Source: a virus
DNA: 64,000 nucleotides
Virus record (IMG/VR): IMGVR_UViG_3300035671_000001
Location: 1-64,000 of that record
Strand: one strand, 5' to 3'
The translations under genes and the position numbers were made by a program. Numbering within the stretch: position 1 is the stretch's first letter; the number at the start of each line of letters is the position of its first letter. Of this stretch, positions 5,171 through 32,822 are shown one piece after another. Below the pieces are notes generated by a model that was given only the letters and a program-made list of their open reading frames with translations, was not told the DNA's origin and did not search any database.

Positions 5171-5276
5171 TCCCTCGACCTCACGCACCCCGTCGGGACG
5201 TTAAGCGTGATTCGCAGATTTCGGCAAGAATAAAATGCGCCTTGTGCACTCGGACAATCTGGCCTACATACAGATG

Positions 5277-5352
5277 GCGAGCCTAGATCAGCGAGAGCAC
5301 CATATGCCGAGAGCGAGCCAGGAGACCTGAGAGCACCACGATCCGATAGCGC
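5277..5352 (+). ncRNA. TIGR mini-array, 2 units
   Basis: GCGAGCC-TAGATCAGC-GAGAGCACC-ATATGCCGA-GAGCGAGCC-AGGAGACCT-GAGAGCACC-ACGATCCGA. Confidence 0.85.
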
Positions 5353-5384
5353 CATTAACCCCAATAGACTGAAGAGGTAGAAAA

Positions 5385-6194
5385 ATGACAGACCCACGAA
5401 TGGGCGACAACGTCGACGCGCCCTACGCCGAAGGCATTGTTGATCGACTTGCGCAGGACTACGCCGAACTCATTACCAATAGCGCCGAAGCGATCCGAGA
5501 TGCTGAAGACCTGCCGCTGATCGTCGAGAGCACCATCGACGTAGCTACACTTTCCAGCATGGTCATCAAGCTGCGCGATCTTGCTGGCCGCATTGCCTCA
5601 CATCACAAGGCGGAAAAGGAGCCGTTTTTACGTGGCGGCACTGCCGTCGACAATTTCTTTCTGAAGCCGAAGGAGAAGCTCAACGGCAAGCGCAAAGAGC
5701 TGGAATCTCGCGTCGATGTTTTCCAGCAGCGCAAGCTGGCGGAGGAACGCGCTAAACGTGCGGCGGAGGCGGCGGCAGCTCGACAGCGACAGCTCGAAGC
5801 GGAGCGTGCCAGTCAGGCGGCAGAAGCGGCGGCACGGCGGGCGCGCTCGGCAGAGACTGCGGAGATTCGAAGGGCTGAGGCGGCACGTGCCAAGGTCGAG
5901 GAGGAGATGGCCACAGCCAAGGCGGACGAAACCAAGTTGGCCACCTTGGCAACAGGCGGCTCGCTGGTGCGCGAACGTTTTCAGGGCGACGATCGCTCTG
6001 GCATGGCCACGATGCGCAAGAAGAAAACGGCTATGGTGACTGACATTGCCGAACTCGATCTTGAGAAACTGCGCTTCTACTTCAAGCCCGAGCATCTTGA
6101 GCAAGCACTGCGTGCATGGGCGACTGCGACGGACTATAACGATCAGATGGCCGGCGCGATCGTCAGCAAGGGTGATACCACAATGATCCGTTGA
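5385..6194 (+). CDS. Coiled-coil phage protein of the recombination module
   Basis: GAGGT RBS; Ala/Glu/Arg-rich helix; EKEPFLRGG.AVD.FF motif. Confidence 0.6.
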   Translation: MTDPRMGDNVDAPYAEGIVDRLAQDYAELITNSAEAIRDAEDLPLIVESTIDVATLSSMVIKLRDLAGRIASHHKAEKEPFLRGGTAVDNFFLKPKEKLNGKRKELESRVDVFQQRKLAEERAKRAAEAAAARQRQLEAERASQAAEAAARRARSAETAEIRRAEAARAKVEEEMATAKADETKLATLATGGSLVRERFQGDDRSGMATMRKKKTAMVTDIAELDLEKLRFYFKPEHLEQALRAWATATDYNDQMAGAIVSKGDTTMIR

Positions 6195-6320
6195 GTTACC
6201 GGACGCGGGGCATTCTTCAGTCGGGCAGCGGCGGGCTCGACTTATCGAAAAATGGCCTGCGGGTCCTGCGTTCCGGTGCGTTATTTTCTCCGTTCAAGGC
6301 CATTGACCGCCGCTCTTTTC

Positions 6321-6460
6321 GAGCCACCCGCAGGGAGTGCACCAAAAGGCGAGAGCGAACCACGACAGTTGAGAGTACCAGATCATCCGAGTGAGCCACG
6401 ACACTAGAGAGCACCAGATCATTCGAGCGAGCCATAACTGAAGAGAGCACCACGACGAAG
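6321..6460 (+). ncRNA. TIGR mini-array, 4 units
   Basis: 36-nt period with alternating GAGCGAGCC and GAGAG[CT]ACC repeats and 9-nt spacers. Confidence 0.9.
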
Positions 6461-6560
6461 AATGAGCGCACAGCTCAAGTTTACAAAATGGTCGGGCGCG
6501 CTCAAGGTCGTCAACCGCCGCACCTTTTTCACTGAGATGATTAGAAAGGAGAAAACGCCT

Positions 6561-7559
6561 ATGCCGCGTTCAGCAGTATGGCCAACCCTACGATACGGCG
6601 ATCTAGAGCGGGTCCACTCAATTGTCGAACAGGTAACGCCGGAGATGGCCAACGCCAAGATTCCCGGCGCGCTGTTCGAACGACAGCGACCGCTGCGTAA
6701 AAGCAACATTCTCAGATTGACTAACGAGATGAGGGAGGACCGCTTCTTGCCGGGAACGCAGATCGTGTTCTGCGTCACGCCGGATAACAAGGAAAGACTG
6801 GTCAACGGGCAGCATACGCTGACGTGCATTATCGAATCCGATCGGCCGCAATGGCTCACGATCACCTACATGCGGGCCGACAATATCGAGGATGTGGCAC
6901 AAATCTACAGCGTCCTCGATACGCAAGCGGTTCGCACCGTAGGCGATGCTTGTCGCGCGCATGGAGAGGAGATCACCTCAATTCCATATTTCCGGCAGCT
7001 CGCTTCTGCTGTGGGCATCATCGAGAACAACATGGAGCAGAAGGTAAGTATCAAGGGGCCAGCCTCGCGCGCTGGCCGCATCGCGCTGATGAAAGAATAC
7101 GAGGTGGCGGCACGAATGTTCGCCGGCACGATTGAGAGCGGCGGGCATGAACCGAAAAGCCGTATTCTGCGTGCAGCCATTATGGCCGTTGCGTTGGTGA
7201 CATTTCAGTATCAACCGTCGCTTGCGGCAGAGTTTTGGTCGGGTGTTGCCGATGATGAGGGGCTGGAGCGAAGGTCACCTGAGAAGACTTTGCTCACATA
7301 CCTGCGGGATGCGGATCGAAAGAAGTACCAGCAAGCGGGCGGTTGGCTACAGCGACAGATGCGCGTGAAGGCTGCGACATTGTGCTGGAATGCCAAGTTT
7401 CGAAACGAAGAACTTGAATTCATCAAACTCAACGCTTTCAAGCGCTATCGCTTGCTGGGCACGCGCTTTCATCACGGACTCTTCGACGACGAAACCGAGA
7501 TGCCTGATCCCATCATGTCGGACGAAGACAGCGTCGCCGCTTATTCCACGGGGAGCTGA
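6561..7559 (+). CDS. ParB-like/DGQHR-like N-terminal domain protein (in-frame upstream ATG at 6462)
   Basis: RQRPL...LVNGQHTL motif; AAAGGAG RBS at 6546-6551. Confidence 0.55.
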   Translation: MPRSAVWPTLRYGDLERVHSIVEQVTPEMANAKIPGALFERQRPLRKSNILRLTNEMREDRFLPGTQIVFCVTPDNKERLVNGQHTLTCIIESDRPQWLTITYMRADNIEDVAQIYSVLDTQAVRTVGDACRAHGEEITSIPYFRQLASAVGIIENNMEQKVSIKGPASRAGRIALMKEYEVAARMFAGTIESGGHEPKSRILRAAIMAVALVTFQYQPSLAAEFWSGVADDEGLERRSPEKTLLTYLRDADRKKYQQAGGWLQRQMRVKAATLCWNAKFRNEELEFIKLNAFKRYRLLGTRFHHGLFDDETEMPDPIMSDEDSVAAYSTGS

Positions 7560-7569
7560 GAGGTGTGTG

Positions 7570-8532
7570 ATGACGGCGCAGCTCAAATTCACCAAGTGGT
7601 CGGGCGGCTCGGTGGGCCGCCCCGGCCTATACGAAGACATGAGACTTGATCACTACCATGGCCGCGATGTGTGCGACGGCGTCTCGATCAGCTCTAGCGG
7701 ACTTCGCACGATCTTTAATGAAAGCCCGGCGCATTATTGGTGCGGCAGCGTGTACAACAAGGAGCGTATCGAGGAAGAGCCGAGCCGAGAAATGGTGATT
7801 GGGCGGGCCATGCACCATCTGATGTTAGGTGAGCCGTATTTCGCTGAAATTTTCCGGCGCGCGCCCACCGAGGTGCCAGATGCCAAGGGCGTTCTCAAGC
7901 CGTGGAGCCTGCAGCTCAACTACGCCAAGGAGTGGCGAGACGCGCGCAAGCGGGAGGGCAAAGAGATTATCTTTCCGAAAGAGGTTGAGCTGATCGAGGG
8001 CATGGCGCGGGCGCTCGGTGCACACGAGATGGTGCAGGCGGGCGCTTTCGACGGCTATGTCGAGCGCTCCGGATTTTGGCGCGACAAGGAGACTGGGATA
8101 TGGCTCAAGATCAGGCCCGACGTGATCCCGTCCGATAGCGGTGACGTCTGCGATCTCAAGACCACAGCGAGTGTGCAATGGAAAGATTTGCAGCGCACCG
8201 TTGCCGAGCTGGGATACGTTCAACAATTTGCACTGATGCGAGAGGTGCTCCGAAATCTCGGATTTCCGTTTGCCAGTGCCACGTTGATCTTTGTGGAGCG
8301 CAAGCCGCCGCATTGCGTGCGTGTTGTCTCGCTGCGCTCTACCGATCTAGATCGTGGCCAGCAGATGAATCGGTATGCGCTGCGGACGTTTGTGCGCTGC
8401 TACAAGTCGAAGAAGTGGCCGGGGCCGGGCGGGACGCGCCGGGACGCCGAAGAAATTTGGCTGCCGGATTGGGCTCGTGAAAGCGTCGAGGCCAGATTGG
8501 CCTCTATGCAAGAGGATGAACAAGCCGCATAA
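7570..8532 (+). CDS. RecE/exonuclease VIII-like PD-(D/E)XK exonuclease
   Basis: YH....ISSSGLR, G.A.H..ML, K.RPD....DLKT, GY..QFA motifs. Confidence 0.85.
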   Translation: MTAQLKFTKWSGGSVGRPGLYEDMRLDHYHGRDVCDGVSISSSGLRTIFNESPAHYWCGSVYNKERIEEEPSREMVIGRAMHHLMLGEPYFAEIFRRAPTEVPDAKGVLKPWSLQLNYAKEWRDARKREGKEIIFPKEVELIEGMARALGAHEMVQAGAFDGYVERSGFWRDKETGIWLKIRPDVIPSDSGDVCDLKTTASVQWKDLQRTVAELGYVQQFALMREVLRNLGFPFASATLIFVERKPPHCVRVVSLRSTDLDRGQQMNRYALRTFVRCYKSKKWPGPGGTRRDAEEIWLPDWARESVEARLASMQEDEQAA

Positions 8533-8545
8533 TATGTTTGCGGAC

Positions 8546-8581
8546 AGCCATCTGGCATGAGTGCACCAAAATTTGGGAGCG
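8546..8581 (+). ncRNA. Solitary TIGR unit
   Basis: AGCC-ATCTGGCAT-GAGTGCACC-AAAATTTGG-GAGCG, followed by a hairpin at 8589-8618. Confidence 0.8.
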
Positions 8582-12480: not shown

Positions 12481-12809
12481 GCGAGTCATTCCCTCCGAGA
12501 GCACCAAACAAGCCGAGCGAGCCACGAGCGCTGAGTGTGCCCATACACCGGAGCGAGCCAAAGTAGAGGAGAGCACCATTTCCGAGGAGCGAGCCAAGAG
12601 CGGCTAGAGCACCACGCGAGAGGAGCGAGCCAAAAAGCAGAGAGCACCAAATAAGCTGAGCGTTAAGCCAGTGAACGGGTGAGCACCAAGTCGCGCGAGC
12701 GAGCCACGGGCTGGGAGAGCACCACCGAAACTGAGCGAGCCACTTCTACGGAGAGCACCAGACACGTTGAGCGAACCATGACTTCAGAGAGCACCCGAGA
12801 AATTGAGCG
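12445..12809 (+). ncRNA. TIGR array, 10 units
   Basis: 36-nt dual-repeat periodicity. Confidence 0.9.
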
Positions 12810-13122
12810 AGCGTTGCTTCTGTCAATCGAAGAAGATGACTGGAGTAAACGCTCGCTCACTGACGCCAGCGGCAAGGTGATTGGATTCTTCTTGCACCCG
12901 GAGGATCGCGATCTCGCAGTGAGCGCGCTCGAAGCGCAGAGCAACGTGCTCACTATGATGGACACATTCGTCGAGGCGCTATCCTACATTGCCAATCCAG
13001 ATACTGATCCGGAAGCGGCACGCGCGGTCGCTGCCAAGTGCGCTGACAATGCGAAGCGCTATGCCGACTTGTTCTGCAAGATTACGCCCGTCGAATTTAT
13101 AACAACCATAGTGCCATCATAA
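12778..13122 (+). CDS. Hypothetical protein, probably starting within the last TIGR unit
   Basis: In-frame ATG at 12778; a guide matches its DTFVE codons synonymously, supporting this frame. Confidence 0.5.
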   Translation: MTSESTREIERALLLSIEEDDWSKRSLTDASGKVIGFFLHPEDRDLAVSALEAQSNVLTMMDTFVEALSYIANPDTDPEAARAVAAKCADNAKRYADLFCKITPVEFITTIVPS

Positions 13123-16812: not shown

Positions 16813-17178
16813 GGCTCGCTCCTGCGCCTTGGTACTCTCTACAGCGCTGGCTCGCTCATGCAATGTGGTGCTGTCACTTCTTTTGGCTCGCTCTCAAAAC
16901 GTGGTGCTGTCTCTTGATGTGGCTCGCTCGTCCGACTTGGTGCTCTCCACCAATATGGCTCGCTCCGCCGATATGGTGCTCTCAGACTCCACGGCTCGCT
17001 CTCGACCTATGGCGCTCTCAACGGGCGTGGCTCGCTCCGGCGATCTGGTGCTCTCGCGCTGGTTGGCTCGCTCCGGATTTCTGGTGCTCACAGATCACGT
17101 GGCTCGCTCGCTAAGCGTGGTACTCTCGTCTCGTATGGCTCGCTCTCCCGGCTTGGTGCTCTCAGAGACTTTGGCTCG
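16813..17178 (-). ncRNA. TIGR array, 10 units, minus strand
   Basis: Plus strand shows GGCTCGCTC-N9-GGTGCTCTC-N9 repeated ten times. Confidence 0.9.
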
Positions 17179-21709: not shown

Positions 21710-22066
21710 CAGACGGACAGCATCATAATAGACGAGCGAGCCAAGATTAGTGAGAGCACCACGTCCGACGAGCGAGCCACGAAAGTTGAGAGCACCAAAG
21801 TGGCAGAGCGTAGCCAGAGAAAGTGAGAGCACCATTTTGAGCGAGCGAGCCATGTCCTGTGAGAGTACCAGACAAGACGAGCGTTAAGCCACTTGAAGCG
21901 AGAGTACCAAAACGAGTGAGCGAGCCAAGCGCGAAGAGAGCACCATGCAAGTTGAGCGAGCCATGTCCCATGAGAGTACCAAAAATCAGGAGCGAGCCAA
22001 GCGAGCCGAGAGCACCAATAGTCAAGAGCGAGCCATAACTACAGTGAGTACCAGAACAGGAGAGCG
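21623..22066 (+). ncRNA. TIGR array upstream of tas, about 12 units
   Basis: 36-nt dual-repeat periodicity ending 3 nt before the tas ATG. Confidence 0.9.
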
Positions 22067-22069
22067 AAA

Positions 22070-22858
22070 ATGACAGACGTTGCAGCAGTCCAAGCCTTAA
22101 CGCGTGATCTACGAAACGCCGCCGCGACAATGACGCGAGACGAAGCGCGATTCCTCGTTGATGCGTATTACATCATTCAAGACGATCGGAAGCGATCGGC
22201 CAACCAAGTGCGTTCTATGAAGGAGGAGCCACACGCCGTCCTTCAGTGGTTCTTCGATCAGAACGTCACGCTTGAAGGACAAATCAAGCGCGCCCTCGAT
22301 TCGTATTCCGACGCCAGCAAGATCGGCCTTTGGATGAAAGGAGTTTACGGAATCGGCCCGGTGATCGCGGCCGGGCTGCTCGCGCATATTGAGATCGACG
22401 ACAGCACTCCAACCGTGGGTCACATCTGGCGCTTTGCCGGACTTGATCCGACGGTGAAGTGGGAGAAGGGCCAGAAGCGGCCGTGGAATACTCAGCTCAA
22501 GACGCTGTGCTGGCACATCGGGCAGAGCTTCATGAAATTCTCAGGCCGCGACGAATGCCGCTATGGTAAGTTCTACCTTGCCCGGAAAAAGTTTGAAGTC
22601 GAGCGCAACGACTCAGGCGAGAACGCTGAGCTGGCGAAGACGCTGTTGCCGAAGTTCAACAAGAGCACCGACGCATACAAACATCTGCTCGGTGGGAAGC
22701 TGCCGCCGGCACAGATCGATGGGCGTGCACGTCGGTGGGCGGTGAAGCTTTTTCTCTCCCACATGCATGCTCAGTGGTTTAGATTGGAATTGGGCAAGGA
22801 GCCCCCCAAGCCATACGCGATTACGCAGCTCGGACATGGACACATGATTGAGCCATAG
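22070..22858 (+). CDS. tasA: TasA-like Nop-domain RNA-guided DNA-binding protein (IS110/IS116 Tnp_20-related; no RuvC or HNH domain)
   Basis: Coiled coil followed by GIGPVIAAGLL ... IWRFAGLDP ... WN..LKTLCW.IGQSF ... Y..RK ... ARRWAVKLFL; lacks a DEDD RuvC domain and the IS110 catalytic SG loop; embedded in dual-spacer arrays. Confidence 0.85.
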   Translation: MTDVAAVQALTRDLRNAAATMTRDEARFLVDAYYIIQDDRKRSANQVRSMKEEPHAVLQWFFDQNVTLEGQIKRALDSYSDASKIGLWMKGVYGIGPVIAAGLLAHIEIDDSTPTVGHIWRFAGLDPTVKWEKGQKRPWNTQLKTLCWHIGQSFMKFSGRDECRYGKFYLARKKFEVERNDSGENAELAKTLLPKFNKSTDAYKHLLGGKLPPAQIDGRARRWAVKLFLSHMHAQWFRLELGKEPPKPYAITQLGHGHMIEP

Positions 22859-24779
22859 GGTTTGAGAGCACCATCGAAGTCGAGCGAGCCACACGGACAG
22901 AGAGCACCACGATCATGGAGCGAGCCACGGACCTAGAGAGCACCACATAGGCGGAGCGAGCCAGAACACTTGAGAGCATCACGCGTGAGGAGCGAGCCAG
23001 ACGAGACGAGAGCATCATCCTCGATGAGCGAGCCACTGCGGCTGACTGTACCTATAGGAACGAGCGAGCCATTCTACACGAGAGTACCAAGCGAGCCGAG
23101 CGTTTCAGCCATGTAGAACGACAGCATCAGAGCCGAAGAGCGAGCCATGGGAGATGAGAGCACCACGTTGACAAAGCAAGCCATGATCTTTGAGAGCACC
23201 AAGCGAGCCGAGCGTTAAGCCAAGGAGCAAGAGTGCACCACATTGTGCGAGCGAGCCAGAAAACGCGAGAGTACCAAGGCTAGAGAGCGAGCCAAACCGT
23301 AAGAGAGCACCACAAAAAGCGAGCGAGCCGAGGGAGCTGAGAGTACCATATATGAGGAGCGAGCCATAAAGCGCGAGAGCACCATCCTCGACGTGCGAGC
23401 CATGCTCACTGAGAGTACCAAAATGAGCGAGCGAGCCAGAGCCCAAGAGAGCACCATCTGCTCAGAGCGTAGCCAAATGAGCAGAGTCGTACCAACATAG
23501 GAGAGCGTAGCCAAGATCGACGAGCGTACCCTGTCGGAGGAGCGAGCCAAAGACGATGAGAGCACCATGGTGAATGAGCGTAGCCACAAGACAGGACAGC
23601 ATCATGCGATTTGAGCGAGCCACTTCCCAAGAGAGTACCAAGCGAGCCGTGCGAGCCATGGGTAGCGACAGCACCATATGAAGAGAGCGAGCCACCGTTG
23701 ATGAGAGCGCCATGCCAAGCGAGCGAGCCACAGAACTTGCGAGTACCATGTCGTAGGAGCGAGCCAGCGGTAACGAGAGTACCATGGCGACGGAGCGAGT
23801 CATCGCCGCAGAGAGCACCACACGAAGTAAGCGAGCCAATGCGCGTCGAGAGTACCAAATAAGATGAGCGAGCCATGCAGGACGAGAGCACCATCACGCC
23901 AGAGCGCAGCCACAGCCACAGAGAGCACCATCGCTTAAGAGCGAGCCTTACCAGACGAGAGTACCCTACGATCAGAGCGAGCCAAGTCACAGGAGAGCAC
24001 CAAGCAAGGAGAGCGAGCCAGGGCGAGAGAGAGCACCACTACGCGCGAGCGAGCCACGGCGATTGTGAGTACCACGAAAAATGAGCGAGCCTTGTAAGAG
24101 GAGTGCACCAAATCATATGAGCGAGCCTTCGGCCGGGTGAGTACCATTGAACATGAGCGAGCCGGAAAACGCGAGAGTACCAAAAAGCGTGAGCGAACCA
24201 ATGACGAAGAGAGTACCAAAAGGAATAAGTGAGCCAGGGTGTGAGAGAGTACCAAGCGGGCCGAGCGTAGCCATCGGCAGGGAGCGTGCCATATGATCAG
24301 AGCGCTAGCCACGTATGATGAGAGCACCAAGCGCAGTGAGCGAGCCAGTAGCCAAGGGAGCACCAAGTCGGCCGAGCGTTTCAGCCATGCTGATGGAGTT
24401 GCACCACATCAGACGAGCGAGCCTTCCCGCCGGAGAGTACCAAGCAAGCTGAGTGAGCCGTGAAGTCTGAGAGCACCATATCGGCGGAGCGAGCCACGCC
24501 GAACGACAGTACCAAACCCGCCGAGCGAGCCAACGCGATCGAGAGTACCAAGCTGACCGCGCGAGCCATCGACCGCGAGAGCACCATTGCGCATGAGCGA
24601 GCCACGTCGATCGAGAGGACCAAACCACAAGAGCGAGCCAACCAGCGCGAGAGCACCAGATCGCCGGAGCGAGCCATACCGTTTGAGAGCACCACAGAAG
24701 CTGAGCGAGCCTGCGCAGTAGAGAGCACCAACGCAAGAGAGTGAGCCACCCACGATGAGAGTACCACGCCCCGTGAGCG
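22850..24779 (+). ncRNA. Main TIGR array, about 53 units
   Basis: GAGCGAGCC-N9-GAGAG[CT]ACC-N9, period 36 nt, with occasional 1-4 nt insertions in the GAGCG/AGCC repeat. Confidence 0.95.
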
Positions 24780-31925: not shown

Positions 31926-32822
31926 ATGAATAAACCAATCAAAATCGCAACGCCGCTCTCTCGAAAGGCGGTGCTTGTCTCTGTGAATATCTCGCAGTGG
32001 ACGGCGCGAAAGTTGGATCGCAAGGTCACCGACGAAGTTAACCGCGCGCACAACGCGGCCAAGGACGCCGGGCGATACAACAAGCTCTTGATCGAGGCCG
32101 AGCACTTGGCCGAAGTCAACAAGCTGGTTTCGAGTGCCAGGAGCTTGCACTACAGCATGACGCGGCCGTGGGCGGACGAGGGTCCGCGCATTCTGCCAAA
32201 CGCGCTCTACTCGAAGTTCACTGACGCATTCCGTAACTTGAAGCGTGAGTTTCAGATTGCGGCTGATGCGTTCTGCGCCGGCTATCCGAGCTTCGTTGAA
32301 GAGCGGAAGAAATCTTTGAACGGCTTGTTCAAAGAAGCGGACTATCCGTCAGCGAACGACATCCGCAACAAGTTCAAGCTTGAATTGAACGTGTTGCCAT
32401 TGCCAGACGCAGAGGACTTCCGCACCGATCTTGATCCCGACACGCTCGCGGACATCAAACGCGAGATGAGCGAGACTTCCGGCAAGGTGCTTGACGATGC
32501 AATGAAACAAACATTCGTTGAGATCACCGAGCTGGTCGGCCACATGGCCAAGAAGTTGAACGAGCAAACGGCCAAGACCAAGCAGAAAGGCGAGCGCAAA
32601 TTCTATCTCGACTCGCTCGTCAACAACGTGCGCGACTTGGCTGACTTGTTGCCTGCCTTCAATCTGACTGACGATCCGAAGCTCACCGCTATCACCAACC
32701 GCATTGCTAAGGAGCTATGCGTGGAAGATGCGAAGGAGCTGCGGAAGAATGACGAAGCTGCCAAGACAGTCGCCAAAAGCGCTGACGAGATCGTGGCCGA
32801 GGTGGCCAAATTCCTCGGCTGA
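31926..32822 (+). CDS. DUF3150-like protein
   Basis: KAVLVSVNISQW.ARKLD ... T.PW...G.RILP ... LF...DYPS; typical partner of the AAA and vWA genes. Confidence 0.65.
   Translation: MNKPIKIATPLSRKAVLVSVNISQWTARKLDRKVTDEVNRAHNAAKDAGRYNKLLIEAEHLAEVNKLVSSARSLHYSMTRPWADEGPRILPNALYSKFTDAFRNLKREFQIAADAFCAGYPSFVEERKKSLNGLFKEADYPSANDIRNKFKLELNVLPLPDAEDFRTDLDPDTLADIKREMSETSGKVLDDAMKQTFVEITELVGHMAKKLNEQTAKTKQKGERKFYLDSLVNNVRDLADLLPAFNLTDDPKLTAITNRIAKELCVEDAKELRKNDEAAKTVAKSADEIVAEVAKFLG

What the first reader, a model, noticed from the sequence alone, without database searches (positions are those of the whole stretch)
6172..6460. One mini-array holds two variant guides against the same site plus a guide against the adjacent intergenic DNA
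Seen: units 6362-6388 (ACGACAGTT/AGATCATCC) and 6398-6424 (ACGACACTA/AGATCATTC) are near-duplicates. Their targets (..GAC AGT TGG ATG ATC and ..GAC ACT AGA ATG ATC) resemble the upstream gene's 3' end GAT ACC ACA ATG ATC at 6172-6189 (9/18 and 12/18). Unit 6326-6352 has spacer A perfectly complementary to CCTGCGGGT at 6256-6264, and its other half differs only by transitions. Inferred: guides diversify by duplication and mutation, or by repeated acquisition, to chase escape alleles.
Basis: partly seen in the sequence, partly recalled or inferred. Interest (0 to 1): 0.75.

Follow-up and report, generated by a model that had tools for sequence, protein, structure and literature searches.

The report
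Phage TIGR mini-array with duplicated guide
This is a four-unit guide-RNA mini-array of a known RNA-guided system (TIGR-TasA) in a soil phage; two neighbouring guides are real near-copies made by tandem duplication, but the targets proposed for them next door are no better than chance.

Summary
Window 6317-6469 is a dual-repeat TIGR array of four 36-nt units. It is one of at least 10 arrays (92 units) in an 82.5-kb soil phage. The phage's tasA gene lies at 22070-22858 (NCBIfam TIGR_Tas_endo, E 3.5e-58).

Units 2 and 3 are true near-duplicates (15/18). That is the third closest of 4,186 unit pairs, and the bulk stops at 13/18. Repeats and spacers of the two units have diverged equally (3/18 each), which fits tandem duplication followed by drift. 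Across 2,191 units from 124 phage loci with the same repeats, such duplicates recur. Off-register duplications that create chimeric guides also occur.

The proposed targets do not hold. Matches of 9/18 and 12/18 to the upstream gene's 3' end are what about 22% of guides reach locally by chance. None of 25 orthologs carries D-S-W-M-I or D-T-R-M-I. Both predicted alleles would replace a nearly invariant Thr. IMG/VR holds no exact target.

The perfect 9-nt complement of unit 1 at 6256-6264 is real but statistically ambiguous.

This genome does show a significant excess of guides lying beside near-cognate sequence (5 observed versus 0.4 expected). The units of this finding are not among those five. 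Earlier notes of this scan on this same genome had already described the system.

The parts
5284..5346 (+). Upstream two-unit TIGR mini-array in the 5' leader of ORF 5385 (context; same transcription direction)
   Evidence: Pattern search and unit table
5385..6194 (+). Conserved phage gene of unknown function (269 aa, coiled-coil/Ala-Glu-rich).
   Evidence: 71 homologs; 25 aligned orthologs at 49-60% identity. No Pfam or PHROG family.
6172..6189 (+). Claimed target of units 2 and 3 (9/18 and 12/18 match): similarity at chance level
6195..6316 (+). Unique intergenic leader between ORF 5385 and the array. No sigma-70-like promoter, no terminator and no unusually stable fold were detected.
6247..6264 (+). 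Near-cognate site for unit 1 in spacerB + revcomp(spacerA) order. The spacer A half matches 9/9. The spacer B half matches 4/9, and all 5 mismatches are transitions.
6317..6325 (+). 5'-truncated first edge repeat (TTTCGAGCC)
   Evidence: Matches the array-start rule in Faure 2025.
6326..6352 (+). Unit 1: spacer A ACCCGCAGG, loop repeat GAGTGCACC, spacer B AAAAGGCGA
6362..6388 (+). Unit 2: ACGACAGTT / GAGAGTACC / AGATCATCC. Near-duplicate of unit 3.
6398..6424 (+). Unit 3: ACGACACTA / GAGAGCACC / AGATCATTC
6434..6460 (+). Unit 4: ATAACTGAA / GAGAGCACC / ACGACGAAG. Terminal unit whose 3' edge repeat is displaced by 3 nt and truncated (GAGCG at 6464-6468).
6561..7559 (+). Downstream gene (phrog_5931, unknown function; weak ParB_N lead). 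The likely true start is ATG 6561, which has a strong AAGGAG ribosome-binding site, rather than ATG 6462 inside the array end.
22070..22858 (+). tasA: nuclease-less Nop-domain effector that would use these guides
   Evidence: NCBIfam NF052498 TIGR_Tas_endo, E 3.5e-58, 197 bits against a cut-off of 100. PDB TasR 9mty E 1.5e-10; TasH E 5.8e-7.

Best explanation
Region 6317-6469 is a four-unit dual-repeat TIGR array. It lies inside an early operon (ORF 5385, the array, gene 6561, then RecE-like and RecT-like genes) of an uncultivated 82.5-kb soil phage.

Inferred from published TIGR biology: the transcript is cut into 36-nt tigRNAs that load dimers of the phage's nuclease-less TasA (22070-22858). 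[quoted passage not shown] The bound complex blocks transcription or another DNA transaction and does not cut.

Shown here: units 2 and 3 are products of an in-register tandem duplication of one 36-nt unit, followed by six point changes (3 in repeats, 3 in spacers). This is an ordinary mode of array growth in this TIGR family.

The natural targets of the four guides are unknown.
For: - Array anatomy: two alternating 9-nt repeats, 9-nt spacers with an invariant first A (box C 'CCA'), a 36-nt period and a 5'-truncated first edge repeat.
- There are 80 pattern matches in the window against 0.15 expected.
- TasA was identified by NCBIfam and by PDB TasR/TasH hits.
- The repeat variants in this mini-array are among the commonest tolerated variants in 2,191 units.
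- Duplication: 15/18 identity is an outlier. Adjacent and distant near-duplicates recur in 124 loci. A clean off-register 36-nt duplication is visible in L044.
- Targets: real guides find no better match in the phage genome than control guides. The local matches of units 1-4 lie within the permutation null. The orthologs lack the predicted alleles. IMG/VR holds no exact target.
- TasA acting as a repressor, and the spacer geometry, come from the literature.
Against: - No expression or processing data exist for this phage.
- The array has no detectable terminator or promoter of its own, and its last unit lacks a proper 3' edge repeat.
- This genome has a significant excess of guides lying next to near-cognate sequence in the same geometry: 5 at 13/16 or more against 0.38 expected. 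Local targeting is therefore a real phenomenon here, and units 1 and 3 (12/16 each) could be weak members of it. Getting two of four guides at 12/16 or more has an uncorrected probability of about 0.01.
Confidence: 0.7

Rival explanations
1. Units 2 and 3 are two versions of one guide aimed at allelic variants of the last codons of ORF 5385 in competing related phages. They were diversified to follow escape alleles, and the resident allele is protected by mismatches.
For: - Unit 3's 16-nt core matches 6173-6188 at 12/16, and 3 of the 4 mismatches fall at third codon positions.
- Elsewhere in this genome, three guides match the adjacent gene far better than chance: 8550 to the RecE-like gene (15/18), 22891 to the tasA 3' end (15/18) and 32846 (13/16). 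At 22891 and 32846 the differences are mostly synonymous, but at 8550 two of the three are amino-acid changes.
- The RecE-like ortholog in L001 carries the Met codon that guide 8550 specifies.
Against: - 12/16 is at null frequency (4 observed, 3.9 expected) and unit 2 reaches only 9/18.
- None of 25 orthologs has DSWMI or DTRMI, and both alleles would replace the nearly invariant Thr266.
- The differences between the two guides (target positions 7, 9 and 11) occupy all three codon phases.
- IMG/VR has no exact target.
- In 124 other loci, guides show no local near-target excess.
Confidence: 0.08
2. Unit 1 is a self-directed regulator. Its tigRNA-TasA complex binds the imperfect site 6247-6264, 62 nt upstream of its own array, and damps transcription running from ORF 5385 into the array and the recombination genes.
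For: - Spacer A pairs 9/9 and the geometry is correct with no gap. The other half has only transition mismatches, giving 6/9 if G:T pairs count.
- Sites of this quality occur about 0.9 times per guide in the whole genome, so one falling within 100 nt has a probability of roughly 0.0025 per guide. Three such cases are observed against 0.15 expected.
- TaTasR acted on a natural site with 9/9 plus 6/9 pairing.
- TasA proteins repress transcription.
Against: - The statistic was chosen after seeing the case.
- By plain match count the site is unremarkable.
- Perfect half-site matches near arrays are not clearly enriched in 983 units of other loci (4 non-artefact against 1.8 expected; 1 against 0.6).
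- No promoter was found in the leader.
- Three A:C or C:A mismatches remain in the spacer B half.
Confidence: 0.12
3. Unit 2 targets a foreign phage. Its 16-nt variable core is identical to L083:6946-6961, inside a 69-aa YdaS/Cro-like helix-turn-helix gene of another TIGR-carrying phage, so the mini-array serves inter-phage competition.
For: - The match is 16/16 in the spacerA + revcomp(spacerB) geometry.
- The hit lies in a small regulator gene beside Gp157-like and VRR-NUC genes.
- Chance for this one guide in 1.25 Mb is about 1e-3.
Against: - Over all 2,014 guides, perfect 16-mer hits number 2 for the true geometry, 0-3 for the three control geometries and 0-4 for re-paired guides.
- There is no excess at 13-15/16 either.
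- The gene has no homolog in any fetched locus or in the protein database, so the unit 3 variant cannot be checked.
Confidence: 0.07
4. The mini-array is a decaying, non-functional remnant of a larger array.
For: - Four of the seven internal repeats carry a substitution.
- The terminal edge repeat is displaced and no terminator follows.
Against: - Every substitution is one of the most frequent tolerated variants in the family: GAGAGTACC 256 times, GAGTGAGCC 54, GAGCGAACC 37, GAGTGCACC 16.
- The 36-nt register is perfectly kept across all four units.
Confidence: 0.08

Closest known systems
Dual-repeat TIGR-TasA systems (Faure et al. 2025, Science, PMC12045711), especially the tasParB-associated class with 10-nt repeats
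   Same: - Two alternating short repeats, an edge - spacer A - loop - spacer B unit, a 36-nt period and a 5'-truncated first edge repeat.
- A solo Nop-domain Tas protein in a phage genome.
- Arrays lie upstream of, downstream of and between genes.
- The effective layout of 10-nt repeats (ending in CCA) with 8 variable nt matches the description of the tasParB class.
   Different: - This array lies 16 kb from tasA. It is one of many small arrays and solitary units scattered through an operon, whereas published arrays flank tas.
- It has only four units and no terminator.
- It contains an adjacent near-duplicate pair.
- The ParB-like nature of neighbouring genes is not established.
TasA and dead-TasR RNA-guided transcriptional repressors (Xu et al. 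2026, bioRxiv 10.64898/2026.09.09.750476)
   Same: A nuclease-less effector, so DNA binding or repression is the expected output.
   Different: The tested TasA (MbTasA) and the dead TasR proteins came from other lineages, stem-loop systems among them. No natural targets were identified there or here.
Virus-borne mini-CRISPR arrays used in inter-viral conflict
   Same: Short guide arrays carried by a virus. The targets are presumed to be competing mobile elements. Guides can match relatives of the carrier.
   Different: - The guide architecture is different (split 8-9-nt spacers that read both strands, no PAM).
- No adaptation genes are present.
- No cognate target was found.

Membership tests
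Dual-repeat TIGR array | Two distinct alternating 8-12-nt repeats separated by spacers of about 9 nt | tested here: met
   GAGCGAGCC (edge) and GAGAGCACC (loop) alternate with 9-nt spacers across 6317-6469.
Dual-repeat TIGR array | Unit length of 36 nt in strict register | tested here: met
   Tandem Repeats Finder reports period 36 with 0% indels at 6353-6452. Unit starts are 6326, 6362, 6398 and 6434.
Dual-repeat TIGR array | A Tas protein (Nop/IS110-type RNA-binding domain) encoded in the same element | tested here: met
   ORF 22070-22858: NCBIfam NF052498 E 3.5e-58; PDB TasR 9mty E 1.5e-10. It lies 16 kb from this array and is not adjacent to it.
Dual-repeat TIGR array | Box C (CCA) immediately 5' of each spacer and a box D-like GA immediately 3' | tested here: met
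   Spacer position 1 is A in 81/92 and 86/92 units, after ..CC. Every repeat starts with GAG.
Dual-repeat TIGR array | [quoted passage not shown] | tested here: inconclusive
   The start is met (TTTCGAGCC). At the end, GAGCG is displaced by 3 nt, and no + strand terminator lies between 6460 and 6560. Solitary units 8550 and 32846 do have hairpins after them.
Dual-repeat TIGR array | Transcribed and processed into 36-nt tigRNAs bound by Tas | not testable with these tools
   Only the source soil DNA run holds the sequence, and no RNA holder is listed.
   25 orthologs lack DSWMI and DTRMI. The IMG/VR degenerate scan gave 2 unrelated hits. No ortholog closer than 60% identity is available.

The most novel reading that the evidence does not exclude
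In this phage, TIGR guides are deliberately placed beside the genes they nearly match. Each small array or solitary unit would then form a linked 'guide plus immune allele' cassette that acts against the corresponding allele of closely related phages: RNA-guided allelic exclusion, or homing-like spread, by a nuclease-less TasA. Under this reading, units 1 and 3 of this mini-array are weak examples, and the duplicated pair is a guide being diversified against variant alleles.
Probability: 0.12. Interest if true: 0.8.

Novelty: new member of a known kind. Interest (0 to 1): 0.38.

Why it matters
TIGR-Tas systems were described in 2025. Their natural targets and the way arrays gain guides are explicitly open questions.

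This mini-array does not reveal a target. The duplicated pair, together with the survey it prompted, shows that arrays of this family change by tandem 36-nt duplication. The survey found:
- recurrent near-duplicates;
- units that share one half, about 50 times more often within a locus than between loci;
- a clean off-register duplication that makes a chimeric guide.

Duplication can therefore create new spacer combinations without any adaptation machinery.

The genome-wide excess of guides lying beside near-cognate genes is the more promising lead on natural targets. It rests on other units, not on those of this finding.

Tried and rejected
The DNA of the 25 orthologs, and of the closest one (60% identity), could not be fetched, so the allele test is at protein level only.
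- The search for related loci with the single proteins found nothing in IMG/VR.
- The alignment query found 10 loci. The best, L001 (54% identity), has no array after the ortholog.
- The metagenome scan with the alignment found nothing.
- GenBank phages gave no DNA or protein match for this region, for ORF 5385 or for TasA.
- No RNA holder is listed. Only the source soil DNA run holds the region, and its contigs show no length or sequence variants of the array.
- Folding of the leader (z = 0.31) and of the 3' flank (z = -0.46) is unremarkable. The minimum-energy fold does not use the 6256-6264/6326-6334 pairing.
- No sigma-70-like promoter was found.
- The leader has no repeats elsewhere.
- No unit in 124 other loci resembles any of the four units.
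- Target searches in 1.25 Mb of related phage DNA gave no excess for any geometry.
- The L083 HTH gene has no homologs, so the unit 3 variant could not be checked.
- The ParB identity of the neighbouring genes is not established.

Full report
**What is there**

Reading 5200-7200 shows a strictly periodic structure downstream of ORF 5385-6194. A 5'-truncated edge repeat (TTTCGAGCC, 6317-6325) is followed by four 27-nt blocks at 6326, 6362, 6398 and 6434. Each block is spacer A (9 nt), a loop repeat (GAGAGCACC or a one-base variant) and spacer B (9 nt). The blocks are separated by edge repeats (GAGCGAGCC or one-base variants). Tandem Repeats Finder gives period 36 with no indels.

The combined repeat pattern occurs 80 times in the window against 0.15 expected. 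A curated list holds 92 units in at least 10 arrays or solitary units across the 82,505-bp single-contig virus genome.

This is the dual-repeat TIGR architecture of Faure et al. 2025. The effector is ORF 22070-22858 (262 aa):
- NCBIfam NF052498 'TIGR-Tas system RNA-guided endonuclease', E 3.5e-58, 197 bits against a cut-off of 100, covering the whole 215-position profile;
- PDB TasR 9mty E 1.5e-10, TasH E 5.8e-7, IS621 transposase E 0.017;
- no N-terminal nuclease domain, so it is a TasA.

Spacer position 1 is almost always A (81/92 and 86/92). This A completes the box C 'CCA'. The variable information is therefore 8+8 nt, as in the 10-nt-repeat class described with tasParB.

**Local anatomy**

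The array lies 131 nt after the stop of ORF 5385. That gene encodes a conserved phage protein of unknown function.

The downstream gene is listed from ATG 6462, which sits inside the degenerate terminal repeat. However, an AAGGAG ribosome-binding site precedes ATG 6561, and the PHROG match (phrog_5931) begins about ten residues after that Met. I therefore place the gene at 6561-7559.

I found no sigma-70-like promoter and no + strand terminator around the array. The flanks do not fold better than shuffled sequence. The array is most simply read as co-transcribed with its neighbours, which are followed by RecE-like and RecT-like genes.

Four of its seven internal repeats carry a substitution. 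All of these are among the most frequent tolerated variants in 2,191 units of the family, so decay is not indicated.

**Checking the near-duplicate**

Units 2 and 3 share 15 of 18 spacer positions. Among 4,186 unit pairs in the genome, only two pairs are closer (18/18 and 17/18, both between the arrays at 16822-17172 and 24424-24774). The remainder peaks at 6/18 and ends at 13/18.

The two 36-nt copies differ at 3 of 18 repeat positions and 3 of 18 spacer positions. Spacers have therefore not diverged faster than repeats, which fits duplication followed by drift at tolerated positions.

The three spacer differences sit at A7, A9 and B8. These are the 3' parts of the spacers, at the centre of the target and away from the seed positions defined for TaTasR. 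The two guides may therefore recognise the same site and not distinguish alleles. This last point is an inference.

**Is duplication usual in this family?**

The exact repeat pair occurs in at least 114 IMG/VR contigs and in 12 MAG contigs. I extracted 2,191 units from 124 loci (1.15 Mb).
- Adjacent units reach 14/18 or more in 7 of 1,703 pairs. Non-adjacent units in the same locus do so in 42 of about 25,500 pairs. The chance distribution ends near 13/18.
- Pairs that share one 8-nt spacer exactly while the other half is unrelated number 43 of 27,607 within loci, against 4 of 136,504 between loci.
- L044:1594-1710 shows the mechanism directly. A perfect 36-nt tandem duplication with breakpoints in the loop repeat produces a chimeric unit that combines spacer A of one guide with spacer B of its neighbour.

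In-register duplication (the present pair) and off-register duplication are thus recurrent ways in which these arrays change. The literature still lists array growth as an unknown.

**Checking the proposed targets**

I derived the target geometry from the reported 3' overhangs. It is also the only one of four configurations that shows any local signal in this genome.

- *Whole phage genome.* Real guides reach best matches of 13-16/18. Re-paired and reversed control guides reach the same range. There is no high-stringency self-target.
- *Within 400 nt of each unit.* Placing guides at other array locations gives a best match of 12/18 or better for about 22% of guides, and of 13/18 or better for about 3%.
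- *16-nt core.* Units 1 and 3 each reach 12/16. That class holds 4 guides against 3.9 expected.
In 25 orthologs (49-60% identity) the C-termini read D-[TANSV]-T-[VMN]-[VI]. None is D-S-W-M-I or D-T-R-M-I, and the residue that both predicted alleles change (Thr266) is nearly invariant. The caveat is that no ortholog closer than 60% identity exists in the searched collections.
- *Codon phase.* The differences between the two guides (target positions 7, 9 and 11) fall in all three codon phases, so they cannot be synonymous variants of one reading frame.
- *IMG/VR scan.* An eight-fold degenerate scan covering both targets and their recombinants returned two hits, in a giant protein of an unrelated low-GC phage and in an RNA-virus-like replicase. 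Neither equals either target.

**The unit 1 site**

CCTGCGGGT (6256-6264) is the exact complement of spacer A, 62 nt upstream. The adjoining 9 nt lie in the correct geometry with no gap and differ from spacer B only by transitions.

Sites with one perfect 8-nt half and at least 4/8 in the other occur about 0.9 times per guide in the whole genome. Three guides have one within 100 nt, against 0.15 expected. However:
- I chose this statistic after seeing the case;
- one of the three cases (23438) is array-internal, and another (8550) is already known to be significant;
- the same statistic shows nothing in 124 other loci (1 against 0.6);
- perfect 9-mers near arrays are not clearly enriched.

I rate self-regulation at about 12%.

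**A real effect elsewhere in the genome**

A note from this scan (e1-6077638) prompted a local test. Five guides have a core match of 13/16 or better within 400 nt, against 0.38 expected and 0-1 for the other three geometries. Two reach 15/18, where 2,760 permuted trials gave none:
- solitary unit 8550 against the adjacent RecE-like gene (8452-8469);
- unit 22891 against the last codons of tasA (22834-22851).

Unit 32846 matches 32745-32760 at 13/16 with third-position differences. The RecE-like ortholog in L001 carries the Met codon that guide 8550 specifies where the resident gene has Leu.

Guides beside near-cognate genes are therefore a genuine feature of this phage, although not of the family at large.

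**Other target leads**

The 16-nt core of unit 2 is identical to L083:6946-6961, inside a 69-aa YdaS/Cro-like gene of another TIGR phage. At the dataset level, perfect 16-mer hits are as frequent for control constructions as for the true geometry. There is no excess at 13-15/16, and the gene has no homologs for checking the unit 3 variant. I keep this as an untested lead.

**Verdict**

This is a TIGR mini-array of a known kind in a new, uncultivated soil phage. The near-duplicate pair is real and is best explained by tandem duplication plus drift. The proposed same-site, escape-chasing and intergenic targets are not supported beyond chance, and the intergenic site remains open. Function as TasA guides for DNA binding or repression is inferred from the literature and is not shown here.

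Noticed in passing
window 8550-8576 and 8452-8469: Solitary TIGR unit in the 3' UTR of the RecE-like gene, followed by a clear hairpin terminator. Its predicted target matches that gene 100 nt upstream at 15/18 (none in 2,760 permuted trials). The ortholog in L001 carries the Met codon that the guide specifies where the resident gene has Leu.
   Followed up: partly
window 22891-22917 and 22834-22851: The second unit of the main array matches the last codons of tasA (HGHMI) at 15/18, and the two mismatches inside that coding segment are synonymous. Other tasA genes (L101, L038) match the same guide at 13-14/16 at what looks like the homologous C-terminal motif.
   Followed up: partly
window 16966-17064 (-) and 24460-24666 (+): Two guides are shared (18/18 and 17/18) between two ten-unit arrays on opposite strands. 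They appear in a different order and at a different spacing, so single units, not array segments, have been copied or shuffled.
   Followed up: partly
L044:1594-1710: Perfect 36-nt tandem duplication with breakpoints in the loop repeat, creating a chimeric guide (spacer A of one unit with spacer B of the previous one). Family-wide, units that share one half are about 50 times more frequent within loci than between loci.
   Followed up: yes
window 21870-24420: The long arrays are broken by expanded edge repeats (GAGCG+TTA+AGCC, GAGCG+TTTC+AGCC, GAGCG+T+AGCC). These often follow units whose spacer B equals the edge repeat itself (AAGCGAGCC).
   Followed up: no
L083:6946-6961: Exact 16-nt match to the variable core of unit 2, inside a 69-aa YdaS/Cro-like HTH gene of another TIGR-carrying phage, beside Gp157-like and VRR-NUC genes. 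Compatible with chance at the dataset level.
   Followed up: partly
loci L011-L136: The identical repeat pair GAGCGAGCC/GAGAGCACC occurs in at least 114 IMG/VR contigs and in MAG contigs labelled as six or more phyla. This TIGR-TasA subtype is widespread in environmental metagenome phages and proviruses. The spacers are almost entirely unshared between contigs.
   Followed up: partly
window 6462-6561: The listed ORF start at 6462 lies inside the terminal repeat of the array. A strong ribosome-binding site before ATG 6561 and the PHROG alignment suggest the gene starts at 6561.
   Followed up: partly
window 12742-12768 and 12961-12976: Another guide with a 13/16 near-match, about 190 nt away and just past the end of its array.
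   Followed up: no
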